Notes under the pieces: model-generated
What the model saw: only the letters and a program-made list of their open reading frames with translations
What the model was told of the DNA's origin: nothing
Databases searched by the model: none
Shown here: one piece after another, positions 46,290 to 54,716 of the stretch
Numbering within the stretch: position 1 is the first letter of the stretch
Layout: the number at the start of each line of letters is the position of its first letter
Source: Escherichia coli
GTDB taxonomy: Bacteria; Pseudomonadota; Gammaproteobacteria; Enterobacterales; Enterobacteriaceae
Length of the DNA: 64,000 bases
NCBI RefSeq assembly: GCF_003991155.1
Contig: NZ_CP031293.1
Reading direction: 5' to 3' (one strand)
Position numbers and translations under genes: made by a program

Positions 46290-47243
46290 ATGCGGGCGAA
46301 ACTTCTGGGAATAGTCCTGACAACCCCTATTGCGATCAGCTCTTTTGCTTCTACCGAGACTATATCGTTTACTCCTGACAACATAAATGCGGGCATTAGT
46401 CTTGGAACTCTGAGCGGAAAAACAAAAGAGCGCGTTTATCTAGCTGAAGAAGGAGGCCGAAAAGTCAGTCAACTCGACTGGAAATTCAATAACGCTGCAA
46501 TTATTAAAGGTGCAATTAATTGGGATTTGATGCCCCAGATATCTATTGGGGCTGCGGGCTGGACTACTCTCGGCAGCCGAGGTGGCAATATGGTCGATCA
46601 GGACTGGATGGATTCCAGTAACCCCGGAACCTGGACAGATGAAAGTAGGCACCCTGATACACAACTCAATTATGCCAACGAATTTGATCTGAATATCAAA
46701 GGCTGGCTCCTCAACGAACCCAATTACCGCCTGGGACTCATGGCCGGATATCAGGAAAGCCGTTATAGCTTTACAGCCAGAGGTGGTTCCTATATCTACA
46801 GTTCTGAGGAGGGATTCAGAGATGATATCGGCTCCTTCCCGAATGGAGAAAGAGCAATCGGCTACAAACAACGTTTTAAAATGCCCTACATTGGCTTGAC
46901 TGGAAGTTATCGTTATGAAGATTTTGAGCTAGGTGGCACATTTAAATACAGCGGCTGGGTGGAAGCATCTGATAACGATGAGCACTATGACCCAGGAAAA
47001 AGAATCACTTATCGCAGTAAAGTCAAAGACCAAAATTACTATTCTGTTGCAGTCAATGCAGGTTATTACGTAACACCTAACGCAAAAGTTTATGTTGAAG
47101 GCGCATGGAATCGGGTTACGAATAAAAAAGGTAATACTTCACTTTATGATCACAATGATAACACTTCAGACTACAGCAAAAATGGTGCAGGCATAGAAAA
47201 CTATAACTTCATCACTACTGCTGGTCTTAAGTACACCTTTTAA
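46290..47243 (+). CDS. ompT: Outer membrane protease OmpT (omptin)
   Basis: 317-aa ORF recognised as OmpT; AT-rich upstream region. Confidence 0.93.
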   Translation: MRAKLLGIVLTTPIAISSFASTETISFTPDNINAGISLGTLSGKTKERVYLAEEGGRKVSQLDWKFNNAAIIKGAINWDLMPQISIGAAGWTTLGSRGGNMVDQDWMDSSNPGTWTDESRHPDTQLNYANEFDLNIKGWLLNEPNYRLGLMAGYQESRYSFTARGGSYIYSSEEGFRDDIGSFPNGERAIGYKQRFKMPYIGLTGSYRYEDFELGGTFKYSGWVEASDNDEHYDPGKRITYRSKVKDQNYYSVAVNAGYYVTPNAKVYVEGAWNRVTNKKGNTSLYDHNDNTSDYSKNGAGIENYNFITTAGLKYTF

Positions 47244-47263
47244 CGAAGTTAACCAGATTTTCT

Positions 47264-47290
47264 CCCCGGTGGTATTGTATAACCCCGGGG
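47264..47290 (+). terminator. Hairpin terminator after ompT
   Basis: ccccgg / ccgggg stem followed by a T-rich tract. Confidence 0.55.
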
Positions 47291-47429
47291 AATTTGTTTA
47301 CAGTTACAAGTAGACAATATCCACTAATTTTGTAAGCATTTAACCTATGTCATAACGTGTAATCTCTTACCGCAACACAAGACCTCAATATATTCAAATC
47401 TTATCTTTATTCCGATATTCAGAGACACA

Positions 47430-48914
47430 ATGCGAAAAATAATTACTCATTTCAAAGTTGTTTTAACGTTACTTCTACCAGTAACCGTATCTGCCCAGCA
47501 GATACAGTGGCAATCCTGTATGGCCAGTCAATTCAACCACTGGTTTGGTGAGGAAAAACCGTCTCCTGACTTACTATGTGGTTATTTGTCTGTTCCATTA
47601 AAATATACAGACACAGGCGGAGATGCTTCTTATGAAAAAAAATCACAAGTCAAACTAGCGTTGACAAAATTGCCGGCAAAAAGCAAGCATAAAGGAAGTA
47701 TCCTGATAATAAGTGGTGGTCCCGGGTTACCAGGCATAAATCCTTATATTAACTTTGACTGGCCAGTCACAAATCTTCGTGAGTCATGGGATATTATTGG
47801 ATTTGATCCTCGAGGCGTCGGACAGTCCACTCCGACAATAAACTGCCGGCAATCAGATACAGAGACTCAGGAAAACATAACCGAAAAGCAACAAGTATTA
47901 AATAAAATTAATGCCTGTATCCATAATACCGGAGCCGAAGTCATTCGCCATATCGGCTCTAACGAGGCTGTATACGATATTGATCGTATTAGGCAAGCCT
48001 TGGGGGATAAACAACTGACAGCCGTGGCGTATTCGTATGGAACTCAAATTGCAGCCTTATATGCAGAACGTTTTCCCTACAACGTAAGATCTATCGTTCT
48101 TGATGGAGTCGTCGATATCGATGACCTGGAGGACAACTTCACATGGCAACTCAAACAGGCACAGAGTTATCAGGAAACGTTTGATCGCTTTGCATCCTGG
48201 TGTGCGCGTACAAAAAGTTGCCCGCTTTCTTCAGACAGAGATAAGGCAATAACTCAGTTCCATGAGCTATTATCAAAATTACATCACAAACCTTTATTAG
48301 ACAGTAAGGGAGAAAATATATCTTCAGATGAACTCATATCATTAACAACAGACCTTCTGCTATGGCGTTCATCATGGCCAACCCTTGCAACTGCCATACG
48401 CCAGTTCTCTCAGGGGATTGTCAGTAATGAAATTGAAACTGCGCTCAGTGCTCCGATAGCCTCAGAAGAGTCAAGCGATGCTTCGGGGGTAATCCTCTGT
48501 GTAGATCAGGGGGATGAGCAATTAACACCAGAAGAGCGAAAATCCCGAAAAGACGCTCTTGCGAATGCCTTCCCGGCTATTAACTTTGACAATGGACGTT
48601 CCGATTCACCTGATTTTTGTGAATTATGGCCAATACATAGCGACCTGAACAAAACTCGCCTGAAAAATACTGTTCTGCCCTCTGGTTTACTGTTTGTAGC
48701 ACACAAATACGACCCAACAACGCCCTGGATTAATGCCCGTAAGATGGCAGAGAAATTTTCCAGCCCGTTACTAACAATAAATGGTGATGGGCATACATTA
48801 GCTCTCACCGGAGTTAATTTATGTGTAGATAAAGCAGTTGTACATCACCTGATCACTCCACAAAAAATAGAAAATATATACTGCCCAGGAAATTCTGAAG
48901 CAGAAATACAATAA
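47430..48914 (+). CDS. Putative secreted alpha/beta-hydrolase, S33 / TAP-like peptidase family
   Basis: 494-aa ORF with signal peptide (MRKIITHFKVVLTLLLPVTVSA), nucleophile-elbow-like YSYGT and a TAP-type C-terminal region (KYDPTTPW); occupies the K-12 appY position. Confidence 0.7.
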   Translation: MRKIITHFKVVLTLLLPVTVSAQQIQWQSCMASQFNHWFGEEKPSPDLLCGYLSVPLKYTDTGGDASYEKKSQVKLALTKLPAKSKHKGSILIISGGPGLPGINPYINFDWPVTNLRESWDIIGFDPRGVGQSTPTINCRQSDTETQENITEKQQVLNKINACIHNTGAEVIRHIGSNEAVYDIDRIRQALGDKQLTAVAYSYGTQIAALYAERFPYNVRSIVLDGVVDIDDLEDNFTWQLKQAQSYQETFDRFASWCARTKSCPLSSDRDKAITQFHELLSKLHHKPLLDSKGENISSDELISLTTDLLLWRSSWPTLATAIRQFSQGIVSNEIETALSAPIASEESSDASGVILCVDQGDEQLTPEERKSRKDALANAFPAINFDNGRSDSPDFCELWPIHSDLNKTRLKNTVLPSGLLFVAHKYDPTTPWINARKMAEKFSSPLLTINGDGHTLALTGVNLCVDKAVVHHLITPQKIENIYCPGNSEAEIQ

Positions 48915-48935
48915 TTTCAAAATATTCCGCTATTT

Positions 48936-48969
48936 GCTCCCAATGCAAAACATATATTGCATTGGGAGC
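48936..48969 (+). terminator. Rho-independent terminator after the hydrolase gene
   Basis: 13-bp perfect stem gctcccaatgcaa / ttgcattgggagc followed by a T-rich run. Confidence 0.65.
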
Positions 48970-49177
48970 ATATTCATATTTTTGTTATTCTTGTATGAAA
49001 TCGTCTCATGTACACGGTCCTTTTTTCGCCGAAAACTGATATTACTTTAATCAAAAGTTGACGTGCCAGATTCGAAGTAAATTTATAAAATATCAAATCA
49101 ATATACATTTTGCACCTTCGAGATAGTAATTGCTGTTACTGTAACATGAGTTACAAACAGCTTCATACCCAGAGCTA

Positions 49178-49396
49178 CTGATGTATCAACACGATTCAAC
49201 AATACCCGATATTTATTCCATGCCTCCAGCAACGATCTTTCTTCCTCCGTTGCGATTTCCCAGCATCCTGCAGTGGCGCAATATACTCACTGAATTCCTG
49301 GATGTAGAACTGTGTGGTGACGGTCTTCCAGCCATTCGGCTCCTGCTGTATCGAAGCATACCAGGCTATTTCAATATCGCTATGCTGCGGCAGCAT
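49178..49396 (-). pseudogene. Tail fibre assembly gene remnant (tfaX-like), frameshifted
   Basis: EYIAPLQDA matches the lambda Tfa C-terminal region as recalled; the rest of the Tfa C-terminus ([27 protein letters not shown]) is in another frame. Confidence 0.6.
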
Positions 49397-49452
49397 TTAA
49401 CCCCTTGTAATTCATCGCCATAATTGATTTAATTCACAAATAAAACTATAAC

Positions 49453-50121
49453 ATGGTGAAATTAATGAAAAAAAACACAGATGATGGGGCTAAAATTTAC
49501 ACACCACTTACCCTAAAGCTTTATGACTGGTGGGTTTTGGGAGTATCAAATCGGCTTGCATGGGGATGTCCTACAAAGGAACACCTTCTTCCACACTTTC
49601 TGGAACATTTAGGTAACAACCATCTGGATATTGGTGTTGGAACTGGGTTTTACCTTACTCACGTACCTGAGAGCAGTCTGATATCTTTAATGGATTTGAA
49701 CGAAGCTAGCCTGAACGCGGCATCTACAAGGGCTGGGGAATCAAAAATTAAACATAAAATTAGCCATGATGTTTTTGAACCTTATCCCGCGGCGTTACAT
49801 GGTCAATTTGATTCCATTTCCATGTTTTACCTTCTTCACTGCCTGCCTGGAAATATATCTACAAAAAGCTGTGTAATACGCAATGCGGCGCAGGCCTTAA
49901 CTGACGATGGAACTCTATACGGAGCCACAATTCTTGGCGATGGAGTTGTGCACAATAGCTTCGGTCAAAAACTGATGCGCATTTACAATCAGAAAGGCAT
50001 CTTTTCAAACACAAAAGATTCCGAAGAAGGCTTAACACATATACTCTCAGAGCATTTCGAGAATGTTAAAACCAAGGTTCAAGGTACTGTAGTAATGTTT
50101 TCCGCTTCAGGGAAAAAATAG
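49453..50121 (+). CDS. Class I SAM-dependent methyltransferase (ybcY-like prophage cargo), apparently intact
   Basis: 222-aa ORF with SAM motif I (LDIGVGTGF); sits between tfa remnants as ybcY does in K-12 DLP12. Confidence 0.75.
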   Translation: MVKLMKKNTDDGAKIYTPLTLKLYDWWVLGVSNRLAWGCPTKEHLLPHFLEHLGNNHLDIGVGTGFYLTHVPESSLISLMDLNEASLNAASTRAGESKIKHKISHDVFEPYPAALHGQFDSISMFYLLHCLPGNISTKSCVIRNAAQALTDDGTLYGATILGDGVVHNSFGQKLMRIYNQKGIFSNTKDSEEGLTHILSEHFENVKTKVQGTVVMFSASGKK

Positions 50122-50175
50122 CATCCAACCGCAGCACGTTCTTGCTTAAGACGTGCTGCGGCATAATCCCAATGA

Positions 50176-50300
50176 TTACTCCCTGACAGGGTTCGTAGGC
50201 CACTCAATATCAGGTGCAGTTGATGTATCAACACGGTTCAGCAACACCCGATACTTCTTCCAGGCTTCCAGCAACGAGGTTTCTTCCTCCGTTGCATATA
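50176..50300 (-). pseudogene. Tail fibre assembly gene 3' remnant (tfaD-like)
   Basis: Translates to [33 protein letters not shown] (Tfa C-terminus) with stops immediately upstream in frame. Confidence 0.6.
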
Positions 50301-50313
50301 CAGCTCACTTTTT

Positions 50314-50607
50314 TCACCCACGATTAACCAACAGCCAGACCAGCAGACACGCCACCACCGGCACAGCAAAATCCATCAGACTTGCTACATCCCACGCGCG
50401 CGGATCAAAACCGCCCCACCACGGCATATTCATTCGCTTGCCATGCCCGAACATTTCAATCCAGCGATATTCTGCCTGGGTGTGTTCACGCGCAATGAAG
50501 AACGTACAACCGGCTATCGCCCCGTAAACCCAGTTTCCGGTAAAAAGACCAATCAGTACCTGCGCAGCCACAGCACAAAGCGCATGAAGAAAAGGTGTTA
50601 TATCCAT
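50314..50607 (-). CDS. Hypothetical small membrane protein (97 aa), prophage tail-fibre region
   Basis: Track ORF with two or three hydrophobic helices, tightly packed after the 234-aa gene; no family recognised. Confidence 0.5.
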   Translation of the reverse strand: MDITPFLHALCAVAAQVLIGLFTGNWVYGAIAGCTFFIAREHTQAEYRWIEMFGHGKRMNMPWWGGFDPRAWDVASLMDFAVPVVACLLVWLLVNRG

Positions 50608-50617
50608 TACTCCTCCT

Positions 50618-51322
50618 TTATCTAATATCGCTTCGGGAAGTTAATAACAACTTTAATTCTGACTCAAGTTCATCAACTCTTTCAGTCAGTTTCTGGATAT
50701 GGTGAATCAGTGGAACAACCAGACGTTCGTACATTACACCTTCGGCAACAAGGCCATTGCTGGAAATAGCTTCAGGAGCATCATCTTCGTTAGCTGGTCG
50801 CCAGTGTACAAACTGAGGAGCAATTTCTCCTACTTCCTCGGCAATCAATCCGTAGAATCCCCAGTCACGCCTGTCATTTTCGCATTGCGACCTGTACCAC
50901 ACAGGGCGCATCCTGAAAATGAGATCGGCGTGCTCTGAATCTATTGTCTCTACTGAATGTTTATAGCGGATAGACGATGTTGACCGCAGCACAGACGAAA
51001 TTGCAGGGTCAGGATTAAGATAAAGGTTTGCCGCCGCTGTAGTCGTGGCCAAATTCCATAAATAAAACGCTTCACGACCTGTCAGTGGATAAAAATCTCC
51101 GCCATAACGACCACTTTCCAGATCGTTCACTTCCACTTTGTTTTTCAGCTTATTATCAACTTCAGTTTTTGTGTATCTGGAGCTGATATCCTGCTTTGCA
51201 CTGGTCATCTCAGTCTGAAGCGTTGATACTTTTCTGCTAATTGATGAAATATCTTCCTTAGCTTTACTGACATCTCCCTTTAGCTTGGTGATATCTCCTG
51301 GAATTACTGTCGATGTAGCCAT
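50618..51322 (-). CDS. Hypothetical fibre-like protein with a C-terminal S74-type intramolecular chaperone-like domain
   Basis: 234-aa ORF; motif SSIRYK then MRPVWYRS and GLIAEEVGEIAPQFV resembles the self-cleaving chaperone domain of phage fibres and spikes. Confidence 0.55.
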   Translation of the reverse strand: MATSTVIPGDITKLKGDVSKAKEDISSISRKVSTLQTEMTSAKQDISSRYTKTEVDNKLKNKVEVNDLESGRYGGDFYPLTGREAFYLWNLATTTAAANLYLNPDPAISSVLRSTSSIRYKHSVETIDSEHADLIFRMRPVWYRSQCENDRRDWGFYGLIAEEVGEIAPQFVHWRPANEDDAPEAISSNGLVAEGVMYERLVVPLIHHIQKLTERVDELESELKLLLTSRSDIR

Positions 51323-51331
51323 TTTTCTGCC

Positions 51332-51613
51332 TCACATCCAGCCACGAAGTTGATGCTCAACAACAACCGCGTATTTATCGAATATTGACGATTTTTTTGC
51401 ATCATTAATGATGCGCACGTTTACAAAATATCCATCTTCCTTAACACATACCGGTTCGCCATCTTCAGTCAGCTCTCCGGTTTCTTTGTACACGTTACCT
51501 ATCACGTCAATAAGAATATCATCCTGCATCGACTCGTCATCATAATAACCAGCACTCTCCATAAAGGTCGAAAAGTCGGCCCTGTCGGCAAATTTGAGTG
51601 TTAAATCTTTCAT
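51332..51613 (-). CDS. Hypothetical small acidic protein (93 aa), coupled to stf
   Basis: Start codon overlaps the stf stop at 51613; Asp/Glu-rich; no family recognised. Confidence 0.5.
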   Translation of the reverse strand: MKDLTLKFADRADFSTFMESAGYYDDESMQDDILIDVIGNVYKETGELTEDGEPVCVKEDGYFVNVRIINDAKKSSIFDKYAVVVEHQLRGWM

Positions 51614-53985
51614 TAGATTGACTCCCCCACCTGAGCATCAGTCAATGCCTTGTGCCATATTCTGAAATTCCTGACATGACCAAATAAATGACGTAACCCG
51701 GCTGTAGTCTGGCCTCCAATACGGATAATTGCGGTGTTCTGAATATAGGACCATGTGGTTTTTGTTTCGCTGGATATACGCCCGTTACTTACTGAGCACG
51801 TAGACTGATCTGACTTTACACGCATCCCCATAACCATTTTTTCAAGCAATGCGTTTTCGTTTACCCGTCTGTTAGCTCCTCCAATATCGCAATAAGGAAA
51901 TCCGTCGTAATCTGTTGAATGACCGAAGCCAAGAATAATAGCCGCTCCGGTTTGATGACCGCCGGTATCAAAAACACGCGGTGCTGCATTTGGCGTTTTA
52001 TACCAGTTCTTATGTACCTCACAAAGAACCGTAAAAGGAAGATTATAAAGGTTATTCTTGATTGGGACTGTCACCATATCGCTTGCGCGGGTCGCTGCCG
52101 TCGTTTCTGATATAATAAAAGATGATGCGCAAGGGCCATTTTCAACCTGAGGGGTGGACAGGAAAATATAATCTCCCGATTCAACGACACCACCTTCTTT
52201 TGGTGCGTATTGTATTGCCGAGGTTATGCAGGACTCGTCAATTGCCTGAATCGTTGCCTCTGCAAAAATCCAGCCCGTAACCTCATCCTTGTTAACTCGA
52301 GCAGTGAGCCTGTCGGCAGCTACACCGGTGATTTCAACCGATAAAGACCGCGTATTAACAATGGCATATCCAAGATTAGATGAAGCGCTGCCATCGAAGG
52401 CTTCAAACCTGATCCTTAACCGGAGTTCCAAATCCGTTTTAAATCTGCACGATGTCGTCACACACTTATTATCGCCTGATACATCGACAGCCCCGGTTAC
52501 TGTAACTGACGCCATGTTAACAGGAGAGGTTTTCCCAATCAGAGAATCGTTACAGACAAATTTTCCATAAGTAAAACCAAAACTATCCGTCCCGGTTTCG
52601 GGCACATCCATATTTACCGACTTGCCCCAACTGGCAGGGGTTTCCGAATTGAGCATGTAGTTCGTTCTCTGACCCTCAATAAGCAGGCCATCACGTTCAA
52701 ATCGTGGCTCGTCAATGGCAGCCTCTGTCAGCACACCAGATTTATTAATATAGGTTGCTTTCGATGCGCGTTTAAACTTTACAACCTTATCGCCAGGCAT
52801 CGTTATTTCATCATCACCAATAACAATCTTTTTATATGATGGCGAAAACCCCGTAATCATATCCAGTGAATCGTTAAACGGTATCCACACATCAGGCAGT
52901 GGCTGTAAGACATATTTATACGGCTCTGCTGCCTGACTTGCATACTCTCTGGCTGCGTCTTCACTTGCTTTTGCAGCGGTCTGGCTTGCAGCGGATGCTT
53001 TCGCCGAGTTCGCCGCTGCAGTCTCGCTTGTCTTTGCATTGGTTTCACTGGTTTTTGCTGCTTTTTGACTGTTGGCTGATGCAGTGGCAGAAGCAGCCGC
53101 CGCACTTGCAGAACCAGCTGCGGCACTCTCGCTTTGGGCTGCTGCATCCTGACTGTTTTTCGCCGCAGTTTCGCTGGCTTTAGCATTCGTTTCGCTGGTC
53201 TTCGCTGCCGTCTGGCTGGACTTTGCGTTGGTTTCGCTCGTCTTCGCTGCTTTCTGACTGTTAGCCGCAGCAGTTGCTGATCCAGCTGCTGAAGTCGCAG
53301 AACCGGCTGCTGCGCTCTCGCTTTCAGCTGCTGCAGCCTGGCTGTTTTTCGCCGCAGTTTCACTGGCTTTAGCATTCGTTTCGCTGGTCTTCGCTGCCGT
53401 CTGGCTTGACTTTGCGTTGGTTTCGCTCGTCTTTGCTGCTGTCTCGCTATTTTTCGCGTTGGTTTCTGATTTTTTGGCTGCTGTCGCGGAATTTGCCGAT
53501 GCAGTCTGTGAGGTCGCTGCCGCCTGTGCGCTGTTAGCTGCATTCGTTTCTGAGGTTTTCGCCGCGTTCTTCGATGATGCCGCTGCAGTTTCGGATTTCT
53601 TTGCCGCCGCTGCGCTCTGAGAGGCGGCTTCGGCGTTGCGTGCCACTTCTTCCACCATTGCCTCAAAACGACGCAATGCCTCCGGCATGACATCATCTTC
53701 CGTCATGGCACCGAGAAAATCATTCAGCGTACCTGGTCTGGAGCCTTCATAGACGGTAATGGTCCCAGCATGTGAAGGCGGAAAACCTTCAACCAGCAGG
53801 GTGACGCTGTACTGGCCATACTCAACATCCATGCTGTAACGTCCGGCTTCATCCGGATTTTCAGAAGCCACCGTGTTCACCAGTACCGTGGTGCTGTTAC
53901 GCTTTGCCTTCAGTTGAATAGTGCAGTTCTGTATTGGTTTTCCCGCACCATCTTTCAGCACACCTGAGATTTTTACTGCTGCCAT
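51613..53985 (-). CDS. stf: Side tail fibre protein Stf (lambda-like N-terminus, repeat region, distinct distal domain)
   Basis: N-terminus MAAVKISGVLKDGAGKPIQNCTIQLKAKRNSTTV matches lambda Stf as recalled; Ala/Ser/Thr-rich AAKTSETNAK repeats in the middle. Confidence 0.85.
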   Translation of the reverse strand: MAAVKISGVLKDGAGKPIQNCTIQLKAKRNSTTVLVNTVASENPDEAGRYSMDVEYGQYSVTLLVEGFPPSHAGTITVYEGSRPGTLNDFLGAMTEDDVMPEALRRFEAMVEEVARNAEAASQSAAAAKKSETAAASSKNAAKTSETNAANSAQAAATSQTASANSATAAKKSETNAKNSETAAKTSETNAKSSQTAAKTSETNAKASETAAKNSQAAAAESESAAAGSATSAAGSATAAANSQKAAKTSETNAKSSQTAAKTSETNAKASETAAKNSQDAAAQSESAAAGSASAAAASATASANSQKAAKTSETNAKTSETAAANSAKASAASQTAAKASEDAAREYASQAAEPYKYVLQPLPDVWIPFNDSLDMITGFSPSYKKIVIGDDEITMPGDKVVKFKRASKATYINKSGVLTEAAIDEPRFERDGLLIEGQRTNYMLNSETPASWGKSVNMDVPETGTDSFGFTYGKFVCNDSLIGKTSPVNMASVTVTGAVDVSGDNKCVTTSCRFKTDLELRLRIRFEAFDGSASSNLGYAIVNTRSLSVEITGVAADRLTARVNKDEVTGWIFAEATIQAIDESCITSAIQYAPKEGGVVESGDYIFLSTPQVENGPCASSFIISETTAATRASDMVTVPIKNNLYNLPFTVLCEVHKNWYKTPNAAPRVFDTGGHQTGAAIILGFGHSTDYDGFPYCDIGGANRRVNENALLEKMVMGMRVKSDQSTCSVSNGRISSETKTTWSYIQNTAIIRIGGQTTAGLRHLFGHVRNFRIWHKALTDAQVGESI

Positions 53986-54049
53986 ATCCACTCCACAAAA
54001 AAGCCCGCCTGAACCGGCGGGCTGTCATAACACTGTGTTACCTGGCTAA

Positions 54050-54649
54050 TCAGAATTTATAACCGACACCCACGATGAAACCGTCAGTGCGCCAGTCGCC
54101 ACTGCCGGAGCCTTCATAAGCAATATCAATGGCCACGGATTCGGTCGGGTTAAACTGCACGCCAGCTCCCCACGCCAGAGACGTGTTGCTGTGGCGATCG
54201 TCATCACTTCCGGTCAGCACATCGTGCGTTTTCCCCTTGTTGTCAGTTACGCGGAGATAATCCCCGGAGAACGTCGAAACACGGCTGTAAGCCACACCTG
54301 CCATCGCATAAGCACTGAACCATTCATTCACGCGTACAGATGGCCCCGCCATCATGCTGAACCAGCGGTTACGCACTGAATCTTCATGCCAGCGGGTATC
54401 GCTGTAATGCGTTTTTTGCTCATCTTTGGCATTGGCATAACTGAATGACGTCACCAGCCCCAGCGTGTCCGTAAATTCATAACGGTATTTCACGTTAATG
54501 CCCTTCAGGTCATCACTGCCTGGCATATCAGTATGGGTCTGAAGATACCCGGCGCTTAGTGTGGACTGATGCTCTGCTGCGCTCGCTGGCGTACCAGCGG
54601 CAACCAGCCAGACTACTGCGGACAGAATAACAGCACATAATTTACGCAT
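54050..54649 (-). CDS. lom: Lom-family outer membrane protein (Ail/Lom/OmpX family)
   Basis: Track ORF trimmed to MRKLCAVILSAVV; lies between J and stf as in lambda; C-terminal GVGYKF. Confidence 0.88.
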   Translation of the reverse strand: MRKLCAVILSAVVWLVAAGTPASAAEHQSTLSAGYLQTHTDMPGSDDLKGINVKYRYEFTDTLGLVTSFSYANAKDEQKTHYSDTRWHEDSVRNRWFSMMAGPSVRVNEWFSAYAMAGVAYSRVSTFSGDYLRVTDNKGKTHDVLTGSDDDRHSNTSLAWGAGVQFNPTESVAIDIAYEGSGSGDWRTDGFIVGVGYKF

Positions 54650-54716
54650 AATTACCTCTCGCTTTTCTGCAATAAAAAAGGCGTCATTTCTGACGCCCAT
54701 ATTGGGGTTATAAAAT

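What the first reader, a model, noticed from the sequence alone, without database searches (positions are those of the whole stretch)
47430..48914. Secreted S33-type alpha/beta hydrolase next to ompT, where K-12 has appY
In the K-12 order the gene between the tfa remnants and ompT is appY, an AraC-family regulator. This window instead has a 494-aa signal-peptide protein with alpha/beta-hydrolase features and a TAP-like C-terminal region, followed by a strong terminator. A second exported hydrolase beside the omptin protease, inside a prophage b-region, could be a fitness or virulence cargo gene.
Basis: partly seen in the sequence, partly recalled or inferred. Interest (0 to 1): 0.6.

Follow-up and report, generated by a model that had tools for sequence, protein, structure and literature searches.

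The report
Hip1-like exported hydrolase partnered with ompT
The gene is real: an uncharacterised exported serine hydrolase, related to the tuberculosis protease Hip1, that travels with the outer-membrane protease gene ompT (or ompP) on E. coli phages and plasmids, and it is already annotated in about a quarter of complete E. coli genomes.

Summary
The ORF at 47430-48914 (+) encodes a 494-aa protein with a Sec-type signal peptide. Pfam finds Abhydrolase_1 plus a TAP-like C-terminal domain. A 14-bp perfect hairpin follows the gene.

K-12 MG1655 matches the window up to 47247 and again from 49174. Its appY segment replaces the hydrolase segment in between.

The closest characterised relative is M. 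tuberculosis Hip1 (Rv2224c), of the tripeptidyl-peptidase cluster of MEROPS S33. The phmmer E-value is about 1e-50 over the full length, and the AlphaFold model matches Hip1 structures at TM 0.78-0.81. The Ser202/Asp428/His455 triad, the oxyanion-hole residues and all ten cysteines are conserved.

The gene is mobile cargo, not core. It occurs in 1253 of 5426 complete E. coli genomes, in O157:H7 Sakai as ECs_1662, in isolated lambdoid phages and on plasmids.

The added finding is that every allele of 76-100% identity lies directly downstream of an omptin gene (ompT or ompP). The two proteins diverge in parallel, and the hydrolase has dN/dS of about 0.13. Homologues at 53% identity or less never have an omptin neighbour.

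I found no paper that characterises the protein. It is a new member of a known kind and of moderate interest.

The parts
45821..45867 (-). attR core of the prophage, a duplicated 3' end of tRNA-Arg (argU; the pauD position of K-12). It marks the prophage boundary, so ompT and the hydrolase lie inside the prophage.
   Evidence: A 47-bp match at 100% to the tRNA-Arg region of L005. Rfam finds a partial tRNA at 45834-45917(-). The sequence was read. The annotated end of K-12 DLP12 maps to about 45868.
46290..47243 (+). ompT, the omptin outer-membrane protease (317 aa) and upstream partner of the hydrolase.
   Evidence: NCBIfam NF008222 scores 705 bits against a cut-off of 537. RefSeq annotates it as ompT.
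47254..47296 (+). Conserved GC-rich hairpin just after the omptin stop codon, followed by ATTTGTTT. It is a probable ompT terminator or attenuator.
   Evidence: Folds at -19.5 kcal/mol, z = -2.95. The CCCCGG...CCGGGG stem is kept in the ompT, plasmid and ompP versions of the module.
47430..48914 (+). The hydrolase CDS: 494 aa, a Hip1/TAP-clade S33 alpha/beta hydrolase. The signal peptide is 47430-47495 (22 aa). Codons of the triad: Ser202 at 48033-48035, Asp428 at 48711-48713, His455 at 48792-48794.
48935..48970 (+). Perfect 14-bp stem-loop 21 nt after the stop codon; terminator-like end of the omptin-hydrolase module.
   Evidence: Found by the terminator scan. Folds at -24.3 kcal/mol, z = -5.95. 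Homology with the plasmid module L004 ends at 48998.
47248..49173 (.). The segment that K-12 MG1655 replaces with its 1572-bp appY segment.
   Evidence: BLAST breakpoints against L003; K-12 annotation.
47400..49366 (.). The segment missing from the third allele, in which ompT is followed directly by the methyltransferase. The junction shows short microhomology (TTCAAAT / TTCAATAT), which fits a deletion.
   Evidence: Loci L005 and L006. About 1000 ompT-positive genomes have neither the hydrolase junction nor the appY junction.
49174..49400 (-). Tail-fibre-assembly gene remnant (the tfaX position), shared with K-12. It is the right-hand flank of the variable slot.
   Evidence: RefSeq annotates tfa and DinI pseudogene fragments here. 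Homology to K-12 resumes at 49174.
49453..50121 (+). Class I SAM-dependent methyltransferase, 222 aa. It is intact here and is the pseudogene ybcY in K-12. It is neighbouring cargo.
   Evidence: phrog_2132, unknown function.

Best explanation
The ORF encodes a catalytically competent serine hydrolase that is exported by the Sec pathway and held together by disulfide bonds. It belongs to the Hip1/tripeptidyl-peptidase cluster of MEROPS family S33.

It is mobile cargo. It forms a conserved two-gene module, omptin followed by hydrolase, that ends in its own terminator hairpin. The module moves between lambdoid prophage b-regions, F-type and other plasmids, and IS-flanked islands. K-12 swapped the hydrolase half for appY, and many other strains have deleted it.

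The most likely function is as follows, and this part is inferred, not shown. After signal-peptide cleavage the roughly 52-kDa enzyme folds in the periplasm or cell envelope. There it uses Ser202/Asp428/His455 to hydrolyse peptide (and ester) substrates. It probably acts on the same pool of cationic peptides and proteins that the surface omptin cuts at dibasic sites. Together they would form a two-step envelope proteolysis system useful against host antimicrobial peptides or for peptide scavenging.

Transcription is probably driven at least partly from the ompT promoter, by read-through of the conserved hairpin. This too is inferred.
For: **Family**
- Pfam finds Abhydrolase_1 plus the TAP-like domain.
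- phmmer against the PDB gives Hip1 chains at 3.5e-51 to 7e-50 over residues 21-475.
- The AlphaFold2 model has pLDDT 89.8. Its best Foldseek matches are six Hip1 entries, at TM 0.75-0.81.

**Catalytic competence**
- Ser202, Asp428 and His455 are invariant in a 40-sequence alignment that reaches down to 27% identity. They align with Hip1 S228/D463/H490 (PMC4022732).
- The Hip1 oxyanion-hole residues Gly110 and Tyr229 correspond to G97 and Y203. The S1-pocket residues P111, V254, Q267 and T466 correspond to P98, V228, Q243 and T431. Only R232 and A465 differ (Q206, T430) (PMC13041806).

**Export**
- The signal peptide is described.
- All ten cysteines lie in the mature part and are invariant or nearly so. 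This matches the five predicted disulfides of Hip1 (PMC4022732).

**A functional gene**
- dN/dS is 0.13 between alleles, up to dS of about 1.06.
- 1229 of the 1253 carrier genomes hold at least 80% of the gene.
- In Sakai, ECs1662 is transcribed in exponential phase. It drops by log2 -2.53 at the transition to stationary phase; ompT (ECs1663) drops by -2.72. Both are in the same, very large, expression cluster.

**The module**
- Seven alleles compared, of which the two F-type ompP copies are 98% identical (76-100% aa; window, L004, L023, L025, L027, L007, L014), lie 92-188 bp downstream of an omptin in unrelated contexts.
- Omptin and hydrolase identities change together, for example 70.5% with 76.3%, 79.4% with 81.9%, and 91.1% with 95.3%.
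- 1230 genomes carry the ompT-hydrolase junction.
- 166 plasmid records match at 60-80% identity, the range of the ompP-linked paralogue; adjacency to ompP was checked on two (L007, L014).
- Eleven isolated phage records carry the gene; in the one whose annotation I read (2G7b) the order is int-ompT-hydrolase-methyltransferase.
- No sigma-70-like promoter was found between ompT and the hydrolase.

**Weak hints of a peptide link**
- The Serratia marcescens homologue is followed by an OppA/DppA-type binding-protein gene. The Pseudomonas homologue lies near an Opp-like ABC transporter.
Against: - No biochemical, localisation or mutant data exist for this protein. Ten literature searches found none.
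- Adjacency to an omptin is confined to the E. coli clade. All 92 other loci I examined lack an omptin; these include Salmonella, Budvicia, Serratia, Providencia, Pseudomonas, Moraxella and about 75 actinobacterial loci. The pairing could therefore be one historical linkage that has been inherited rather than a functional coupling.
- About 60% of ompT-positive genomes do without the hydrolase.
- A conserved hairpin with a T-rich tail separates the two genes, so they may be transcribed separately.
- Alpha/beta hydrolases of this clade are not all peptidases. Hip1 was first described as a carboxylesterase, and TnmK1 and TnmK2 are biosynthetic enzymes.
- PADLOC holds a 'TAP-like protein' model from a candidate anti-phage system, and it matches this protein at 6.8e-56.
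Confidence: 0.6

Rival explanations
1. It is an exported esterase or lipase that acts on lipids, lactones or envelope components rather than peptides. On this view its place next to ompT is only a shared ride on mobile DNA.
For: - Hip1 hydrolyses p-nitrophenyl butyrate and is deposited in the PDB as 'Carboxylesterase A' (PMC4022732).
- Phage records annotate the gene as 'putative lactone hydrolase'.
- More distant homologues have no omptin neighbour.
Against: - The S1 pocket and oxyanion hole that bind peptidomimetic inhibitors in Hip1 are largely conserved (PMC13041806).
- The nearest S33 cluster consists of peptidases (PMC11878206).
- The parallel divergence of omptin and hydrolase across seven alleles compared argues for selection on the pair.
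Confidence: 0.15
2. It is a prophage- or plasmid-borne anti-phage or superinfection-exclusion factor. An envelope hydrolase, perhaps working with the omptin, would destroy incoming phage proteins or alter receptors.
For: - The PADLOC model PDLC01094 ('C3a206', TAP-like protein) matches residues 21-487 at 6.8e-56.
- The gene sits in the accessory b-region where prophages commonly carry defence genes.
Against: - The PADLOC library includes candidate systems as well as proven ones, and I could not see what else the system requires.
- The score of 188 bits indicates only family-level similarity.
- Periplasmic, disulfide-bonded enzymes are unusual as defence effectors.
- OmpT has documented host-directed substrates, namely antimicrobial peptides (PMC6854850).
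Confidence: 0.1
3. It is a housekeeping-type maintenance enzyme for the cell envelope, as proposed for Hip1 and its M. smegmatis orthologue. It would process the bacterium's own envelope proteins, possibly including the omptin, and not host molecules.
For: - Hip1 and its orthologue are reported to maintain envelope integrity, and Hip1 cleaves a bacterial protein, GroEL2 (PMC4022732).
- Its expression tracks exponential growth, as ompT's does.
Against: - The gene is accessory, is absent from 77% of genomes, and is readily lost.
- OmpT and OmpP are active when expressed alone in BL21, which lacks the module (PMC6854850).
Confidence: 0.1

Closest known systems
Mycobacterium tuberculosis Hip1 (Rv2224c, CaeA): a cell-envelope serine protease/esterase of the tripeptidyl-peptidase cluster of MEROPS S33
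   Same: - Similarity covers the full length (E about 1e-50; 27-30% identity) and the fold is the same, with a helical cap (TM 0.78-0.81).
- The Ser-Asp-His triad sits in the same motifs (YSYGT, DPxTP, GHT).
- The oxyanion-hole residues and most S1-pocket residues are the same.
- Ten aligned cysteines match Hip1's five predicted disulfides.
- Both carry an N-terminal export signal.
   Different: - The host is Gram-negative, so the destination is the periplasm or outer envelope, not a mycobacterial envelope.
- The gene is carried on phages and plasmids and paired with an omptin.
- Two S1-pocket residues differ: R232 is replaced by Q206 and A465 by T430.
- The first residue of the nucleophile elbow is Ala, not Gly.
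- No substrate is known.
Streptomyces lividans tripeptidyl aminopeptidases Tap, SlpD and SlpE (TPP A/B/C; MEROPS S33.002 group; the source of the Pfam name 'TAP-like')
   Same: - It has the Pfam Abhydrolase_4 (TAP-like) C-terminal domain.
- It falls in the same S33 cluster as Hip1 (PMC11878206).
- These are also secreted or envelope-associated enzymes.
   Different: - I made no direct comparison with these sequences.
- Removal of tripeptides from the N-terminus has not been shown for this protein or for Hip1.
The ompP-linked 499-aa alpha/beta hydrolase of F-type plasmids (WP_001263869.1)
   Same: - It is a paralogue at 76% aa identity, in the same position 92 bp downstream of the omptin.
- It keeps the same triad, the same ten cysteines (plus one extra in the signal peptide) and the same hairpin after the omptin stop.
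   Different: - It is on a plasmid and not a prophage.
- It has a stronger Shine-Dalgarno sequence and a much shorter intergenic gap.
- It too is uncharacterised.
Prolyl aminopeptidase / proline iminopeptidase (S33.001; TIGR01249)
   Same: It shares the alpha/beta-hydrolase core around the nucleophile (residues 167-263 match).
   Different: - The score is 35.8 bits against a curated cut-off of 259.75.
- Those enzymes are about 310 aa, cytoplasmic, and lack the TAP-like domain and the cysteines. Fold TM relative to the query is only 0.35.

Membership tests
MEROPS S33, Hip1/tripeptidyl-peptidase cluster (Pfam Abhydrolase_1 + Abhydrolase_4) | Alpha/beta-hydrolase core plus a TAP-like C-terminal domain | tested here: met
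   PF00561 at 5e-33 and PF08386 at 6.1e-14. Nearly all of the 120 listed homologues show the same two domains; the exceptions, with PF00561 only, are mostly partial sequences.
MEROPS S33, Hip1/tripeptidyl-peptidase cluster (Pfam Abhydrolase_1 + Abhydrolase_4) | Catalytic triad in the order Ser, Asp, His, with the nucleophile in a small-x-Ser-x-small elbow | tested here: met
   S202 (A-Y-S-Y-G), D428 and H455 are invariant in alignment A1. They align with Hip1 S228/D463/H490 (PMC4022732). Positions were checked.
MEROPS S33, Hip1/tripeptidyl-peptidase cluster (Pfam Abhydrolase_1 + Abhydrolase_4) | Full-length fold like Hip1, including the helical cap | tested here: met
   The model has pLDDT 89.8. 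Foldseek gives Hip1 entries first, at E 3.6e-33 and TM 0.78/0.81.
MEROPS S33, Hip1/tripeptidyl-peptidase cluster (Pfam Abhydrolase_1 + Abhydrolase_4) | Oxyanion hole and S1-pocket residues as defined in Hip1-inhibitor co-crystals | tested here: met
   Mapped through the alignment: G110/P111 to G97/P98, Y229 to Y203, V254 to V228, Q267 to Q243, T466 to T431. Exceptions are R232 to Q206 and A465 to T430 (PMC13041806). This rests on sequence alignment only; the geometry of the model was not inspected.
MEROPS S33, Hip1/tripeptidyl-peptidase cluster (Pfam Abhydrolase_1 + Abhydrolase_4) | Exported, disulfide-rich protein (Hip1 has five predicted disulfides) | tested here: met
   The signal peptide has a VSA|QQ cleavage site. 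All ten cysteines are in the mature part and are invariant or at least 90% conserved. Actual export and disulfide formation could not be tested.
MEROPS S33, Hip1/tripeptidyl-peptidase cluster (Pfam Abhydrolase_1 + Abhydrolase_4) | Serine-dependent peptidase activity | not testable with these tools
   This needs enzyme assays with wild-type and S202A protein.
Prolyl aminopeptidase (NCBIfam TIGR01249 equivalog) | Whole-protein score above the curated cut-off | tested here: not met
   35.8 bits against a cut-off of 259.75, and only residues 167-263 match.
Prophage accessory ('moron', b-region) cargo | Lies between the tail-fibre genes and the att site, has its own terminator, is present in isolated phage genomes, and is variably present among strains | tested here: met
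   - attR is at 45821-45867 and tail-fibre genes start from 50618.
- There is a terminator hairpin.
- Phages 2G7b, ev243, Turner and the PhiR series carry the gene.
- It is in 23% of genomes, with three alternative alleles at the site.
- GC3 is 0.35, against 0.56-0.59 for the chromosomal neighbours.
PADLOC candidate defence protein 'C3a206' (TAP-like protein, PDLC01094) | Match to the model, plus the partner genes that the system requires | tested here: inconclusive
   The model matches at 6.8e-56 over residues 21-487. The system definition and its partner genes are not available in the tool, and neither ompT nor the methyltransferase gave a meaningful PADLOC match.
TnmK1/TnmK2-type biosynthetic alpha/beta-fold enzymes | Embedded in a natural-product biosynthetic gene cluster | tested here: not met
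   The fold is similar (TM 0.76-0.77; 18-22% identity), but the neighbours are ompT, phage tail genes and a methyltransferase.

The most novel reading that the evidence does not exclude
The omptin and the Hip1-like hydrolase are a co-evolving functional pair. The outer-membrane endoprotease would cut cationic host peptides or proteins, and the periplasmic S33 peptidase would finish the fragments or process a shared substrate. On this reading much of what is attributed to OmpT or OmpP in EHEC and other wild strains depends on a partner that K-12 and BL21, the strains in which omptins were characterised, do not have. A variant of this reading is that the pair acts as an envelope-level barrier against phages.
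Probability: 0.25. Interest if true: 0.6.

Novelty: new member of a known kind. Interest (0 to 1): 0.35.

Why it matters
OmpT is a standard virulence and typing marker and a classic model protease. It has been studied almost entirely in K-12 and B derivatives or from plasmids that carry ompT alone.

In about 40% of ompT-positive complete genomes, including O157:H7, and next to ompP on F-type plasmids, the omptin comes with a conserved exported Hip1-like hydrolase under purifying selection. I found no study of that hydrolase.

If the two work together, models of antimicrobial-peptide resistance by omptins would need a second component, and differences between strains in 'OmpT activity' might partly reflect it. 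It would also be an easily handled E. coli relative of a tuberculosis drug target.

If they do not work together, this is simply one more uncharacterised cargo hydrolase.

Tried and rejected
- **Literature.** Ten full-text searches used gene names, locus tags (Z1930/Z1931/Z1932, ECs1662/1663/1664), protein accessions, phage names, and Hip1/TAP/omptin terms. None found a paper that characterises the protein.
  - The only mentions were a microarray table entry for ECs1662 (PMC2241611) and a context description in Desloges et al. 2019. That description names the gene 186 bp downstream of ompT 'ymcE, cold shock'. The 186-bp gap is exactly that of the hydrolase, so this is probably a mislabel.
- **Omptin linkage outside E. 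coli.** I looked at Salmonella, Budvicia, Serratia, Providencia, Chromobacterium, Pseudomonas and an unassigned metagenome contig with the look-up of encoding contigs, and ran one genome-contig scan. No omptin was found in any of 92 loci.
- **Prolyl-aminopeptidase assignment.** Rejected; the score is far below the curated cut-off.
- **Alternative start at Met31.** The PHROG model and the phage 2G7b annotation use it, giving 464 aa. I rejected it because W27 and C30 are nearly invariant across the family, and the paralogues have strong Shine-Dalgarno sequences before the upstream ATG.
- **Lipoprotein.** Rejected; there is no lipobox.
- **Rfam.** Nothing in 45500-50500 reaches a gathering score.
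- **Hip1 structure paper (PMC6033327).** Not held in the library.
Full report
**1. The observation**

The ORF at 47430-48914 (+) is real and is the longest ORF at that place, at 494 aa with an ATG start. Pfam finds Abhydrolase_1 (5e-33, residues 91-460) and Abhydrolase_4, the 'TAP-like protein' domain (6.1e-14, residues 386-479).

The N-terminus MRKIITHFKVVLTLLLPVTVSA|QQ has the parts of a Sec signal peptide: a basic start, a hydrophobic core and a V-S-A cleavage site. It has no lipobox.

A perfect 14-bp hairpin at 48935-48970 follows the stop codon. It folds at -24.3 kcal/mol, and none of 200 shuffles folds as well.

Window 40000-56000, the part compared, is 100% identical to E. coli strain 2016C-3878, where RefSeq calls the gene 'alpha/beta hydrolase'.

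**2. The setting**

The gene order is nfrB, nfrA, ybcH, envY, then attR, ompT, the hydrolase, a tail-fibre-assembly remnant, a SAM-dependent methyltransferase, and tail-fibre and tail genes on the minus strand.

The attR core is a 47-bp copy of the tRNA-Arg 3' end at 45821-45867. So ompT and the hydrolase lie in the accessory region at the right end of a lambdoid prophage, at the DLP12 site.

K-12 MG1655 is collinear up to 47247, four bases past the ompT stop, and again from 49174. Between those points K-12 has 1572 bp with appY, and the window has 1926 bp with the hydrolase. No remnant of either segment is found in the other.

A third allele lacks 47400-49366, so ompT is followed directly by the methyltransferase. 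The junction shows short microhomology, which fits a deletion of the hydrolase segment.

**3. Distribution**

| Feature | Complete E. coli genomes (of 5426) |
|---|---|
| Any match to the hydrolase gene | 1253 |
| At least 80% of the gene present | 1229 |
| ompT present | about 3083 |
| ompT-hydrolase junction | 1230 |
| ompT-appY junction | 831 |
| ompT present, neither junction | about 1000 |

- In O157:H7 the same ompT-hydrolase-methyltransferase block lies at another chromosomal site, inside prophage Sp8. In Sakai the hydrolase is ECs_1662 'hydrolase' and ompT is ECs_1663.
- Eleven isolated phage records carry the gene at 99.6-100% identity (2G7b, ev243, Turner and the PhiR series). In 2G7b the order is int, ompT, hydrolase, tfa remnant, methyltransferase, tail fibre.

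The gene is therefore mobile cargo and not a core gene.

**4. What the protein is**

- phmmer against all PDB sequences gives M. tuberculosis Hip1 (Rv2224c, 'carboxylesterase A') at 3.5e-51 to 7e-50 over residues 21-475. TnmK1 and TnmK2 follow, and prolyl aminopeptidases appear only at about 1e-3.
- An AlphaFold2 model built on a 40-sequence alignment has pLDDT 89.8 and pTM 0.90.
- The best Foldseek matches to the model are six Hip1 entries (E down to 3.6e-33, TM 0.75-0.81), then TnmK1 and TnmK2.
- A published classification places Hip1 and the tripeptidyl-peptidases (S33.002) in one of three S33 clusters (PMC11878206). The 'S33-type' label is supported in that specific sense.
- The prolyl-aminopeptidase equivalog model fails, at 35.8 bits against a cut-off of 259.75.

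**5. Catalytic and structural determinants**

- Ser202 (in AYSYGT), Asp428 (in YDPTTP) and His455 (in GDGHT) are invariant across an alignment that reaches 27% identity.
- They align with Hip1 S228/D463/H490. That triad was shown to be needed for Hip1's protease activity on azocasein and GroEL2; Hip1 also hydrolyses p-nitrophenyl butyrate (PMC4022732).
- I mapped the residues that form the oxyanion hole and the mouth of the S1 pocket in Hip1-inhibitor co-crystals (PMC13041806) through the alignment. G110/P111, Y229, V254, Q267 and T466 correspond to G97/P98, Y203, V228, Q243 and T431. All of these except V228 are invariant or nearly invariant in the alignment. R232 becomes Q206 and A465 becomes T430.
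- All ten cysteines (30, 50, 139, 163, 258, 264, 357, 397, 465, 485) lie in the mature protein and are conserved. This matches the five predicted disulfides of Hip1 (PMC4022732) and argues for folding outside the cytoplasm.
- The upstream start codon is the right one. W27 and C30 come before the alternative Met31 and are nearly invariant, and the paralogues have strong Shine-Dalgarno sequences before the corresponding ATG.

**6. The omptin-hydrolase module (the main addition)**

Every allele in the 76-100% identity range lies directly downstream of an omptin gene, on the same strand, with a gap of 92-188 bp:

- the window and O157;
- a 92%-nucleotide-identity copy flanked by IS elements on a plasmid that also carries iro genes (L004);
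- variants beside fimbrial or autotransporter islands (L023, L025, L027);
- the ompP-linked 499-aa paralogue on F-type plasmids (L007, L014; 166 plasmid records fall in the 60-80% identity band that includes this paralogue).

Identities of the two proteins to the window copy change together:

| Compared with the window | Omptin identity | Hydrolase identity |
|---|---|---|
| L004 | 91.1% | 95.3% |
| L023 | 79.4% | 81.9% |
| L025 | 72.4% | 79.2% |
| L014 (ompP) | 70.5% | 76.3% |

- The triad motifs and ten cysteines are kept in all alleles.
- dN/dS for the hydrolase is 0.13 even at dS of about 1.06.
- A GC-rich hairpin just after the omptin stop (47254-47296 here; -19.5 kcal/mol) is conserved across the ompT and ompP versions.
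- Homology between the chromosomal and plasmid modules runs from about 110 bp upstream of ompT to just past the hydrolase terminator, 46172-48998.
- By contrast, homologues at 53% identity or less never have an omptin neighbour. None was found in the 92 other loci, which include Salmonella, Budvicia, Serratia, Providencia, Chromobacterium, Pseudomonas, Moraxella and many Actinobacteria.

**7. Expression**

The consensus scan found no sigma-70-like promoter on the plus strand between ompT and the hydrolase. It did find one upstream of ompT.

In O157:H7 Sakai grown in minimal glucose medium, ECs1662 fell by log2 -2.53 and ompT by log2 -2.72 on entry to stationary phase. Both were placed in QT cluster 1 (PMC2241611). 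This shows that the gene is transcribed and is compatible with co-regulation. Cluster 1 is very large, so it does not prove an operon.

**8. Mechanism**

*Shown or directly supported:*
- an intact catalytic apparatus of the Hip1 type;
- an export signal and a conserved pattern of cysteines;
- purifying selection;
- transcription;
- mobility as a two-gene unit with an omptin.

*Inferred:*
- the mature enzyme of about 52 kDa (pI 5.4) works in the periplasm or envelope as a serine peptidase/esterase;
- because it has co-diverged with an outer-membrane endoprotease that cuts cationic peptides at dibasic sites (PMC6854850), it most plausibly acts on the same pool of substrates.

Weak hints of a peptide link come from an OppA/DppA-type binding-protein gene next to the Serratia homologue and an Opp-like transporter near the Pseudomonas homologue.

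*Rivals:* an esterase or lipase role; an anti-phage or exclusion role, suggested by a PADLOC model named 'TAP-like protein' that matches at 6.8e-56; and a role in maintaining the bacterium's own envelope, as proposed for Hip1.

**9. Novelty and verdict**

The gene is already annotated in public records. It appears, unnamed or probably misnamed, in at least two papers, and I found no functional study. It is a new, uncharacterised member of a known enzyme clade.

The conserved pairing with omptins, and its absence from the K-12 and B laboratory strains in which omptins were defined, is the part worth following up.

The caveats are that 'aminopeptidase', 'secreted' (beyond export across the inner membrane) and 'virulence' remain untested.

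Noticed in passing
window 51613-53991 (-): An intact 792-aa tail-fibre-like ORF with a GTG start. It has an Ala/Ser/Thr/Glu/Lys-rich repeat region: a 189-bp unit in 2.3 copies at 53014-53444, with 21- and 42-bp sub-periods. In the 100%-identical RefSeq genome, PGAP splits it into pseudogene fragments plus a small 'phage tail protein'. Phage 2G7b annotates an intact 2376-bp homologue. This is probably an annotation artefact caused by the repeats.
   Followed up: partly
window 47243-47430; PMC6854850: Desloges et al. 2019 describe three ompT contexts in uropathogenic isolates. They name the gene 186 bp downstream of ompT in isolate 'cystitis 6' as 'ymcE, a putative cold shock gene'. The 186-bp gap is exactly the ompT-hydrolase gap here, so that label is probably a mis-annotation of this hydrolase. 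They also note that the context with ybcY directly downstream goes with low omptin activity.
   Followed up: partly
window 47430-48911 (protein): PADLOC-DB model PDLC01094 ('C3a206', described as TAP-like protein) matches residues 21-487 at 6.8e-56. So a relative of this family is listed among known or candidate anti-phage defence proteins. I could not see the system definition.
   Followed up: no
window 49177-49373 (-) and 50219-50378 (-): Two Rfam matches to IS009 (RF02111), at 79.9 and 72.1 bits against a gathering score of 117. They fall on the two tail-fibre-assembly gene remnants that flank the methyltransferase. The remnants are diverged copies of each other (84-88% identical over 75-121 bp).
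   Followed up: no
window 49172-49180; L002 11751/14193: In O157:H7 an ISEc8 (IS66-family) element is inserted just downstream of the hydrolase terminator. The flanks overlap by 9 bp, which fits a target-site duplication. The hydrolase itself is untouched.
   Followed up: partly
window 49453-50121 (+): The class I SAM-dependent methyltransferase (222 aa; phrog_2132, unknown function) is intact here, in O157 and in phage 2G7b. Its K-12 counterpart ybcY is a pseudogene. It stays next to ompT even in the allele that has lost the hydrolase.
   Followed up: no
window 50314-50607 (-): A 97-aa hydrophobic ORF (phrog_1443, unknown function; no NCBIfam match) lies between a tail-fibre-assembly remnant and the tail-fibre domain gene at 50618-51322.
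   Followed up: no
L008/L009 (Salmonella enterica contigs), 12146-13449: The Salmonella homologue of the hydrolase (53% identity) sits beside a Tn7-like transposition module (TniQ, TniB, Mu-type transposase, resolvase). A serralysin-type M10 metalloprotease gene lies about 4.7 kb downstream. This is another mobile context that contains a second secreted protease.
   Followed up: no
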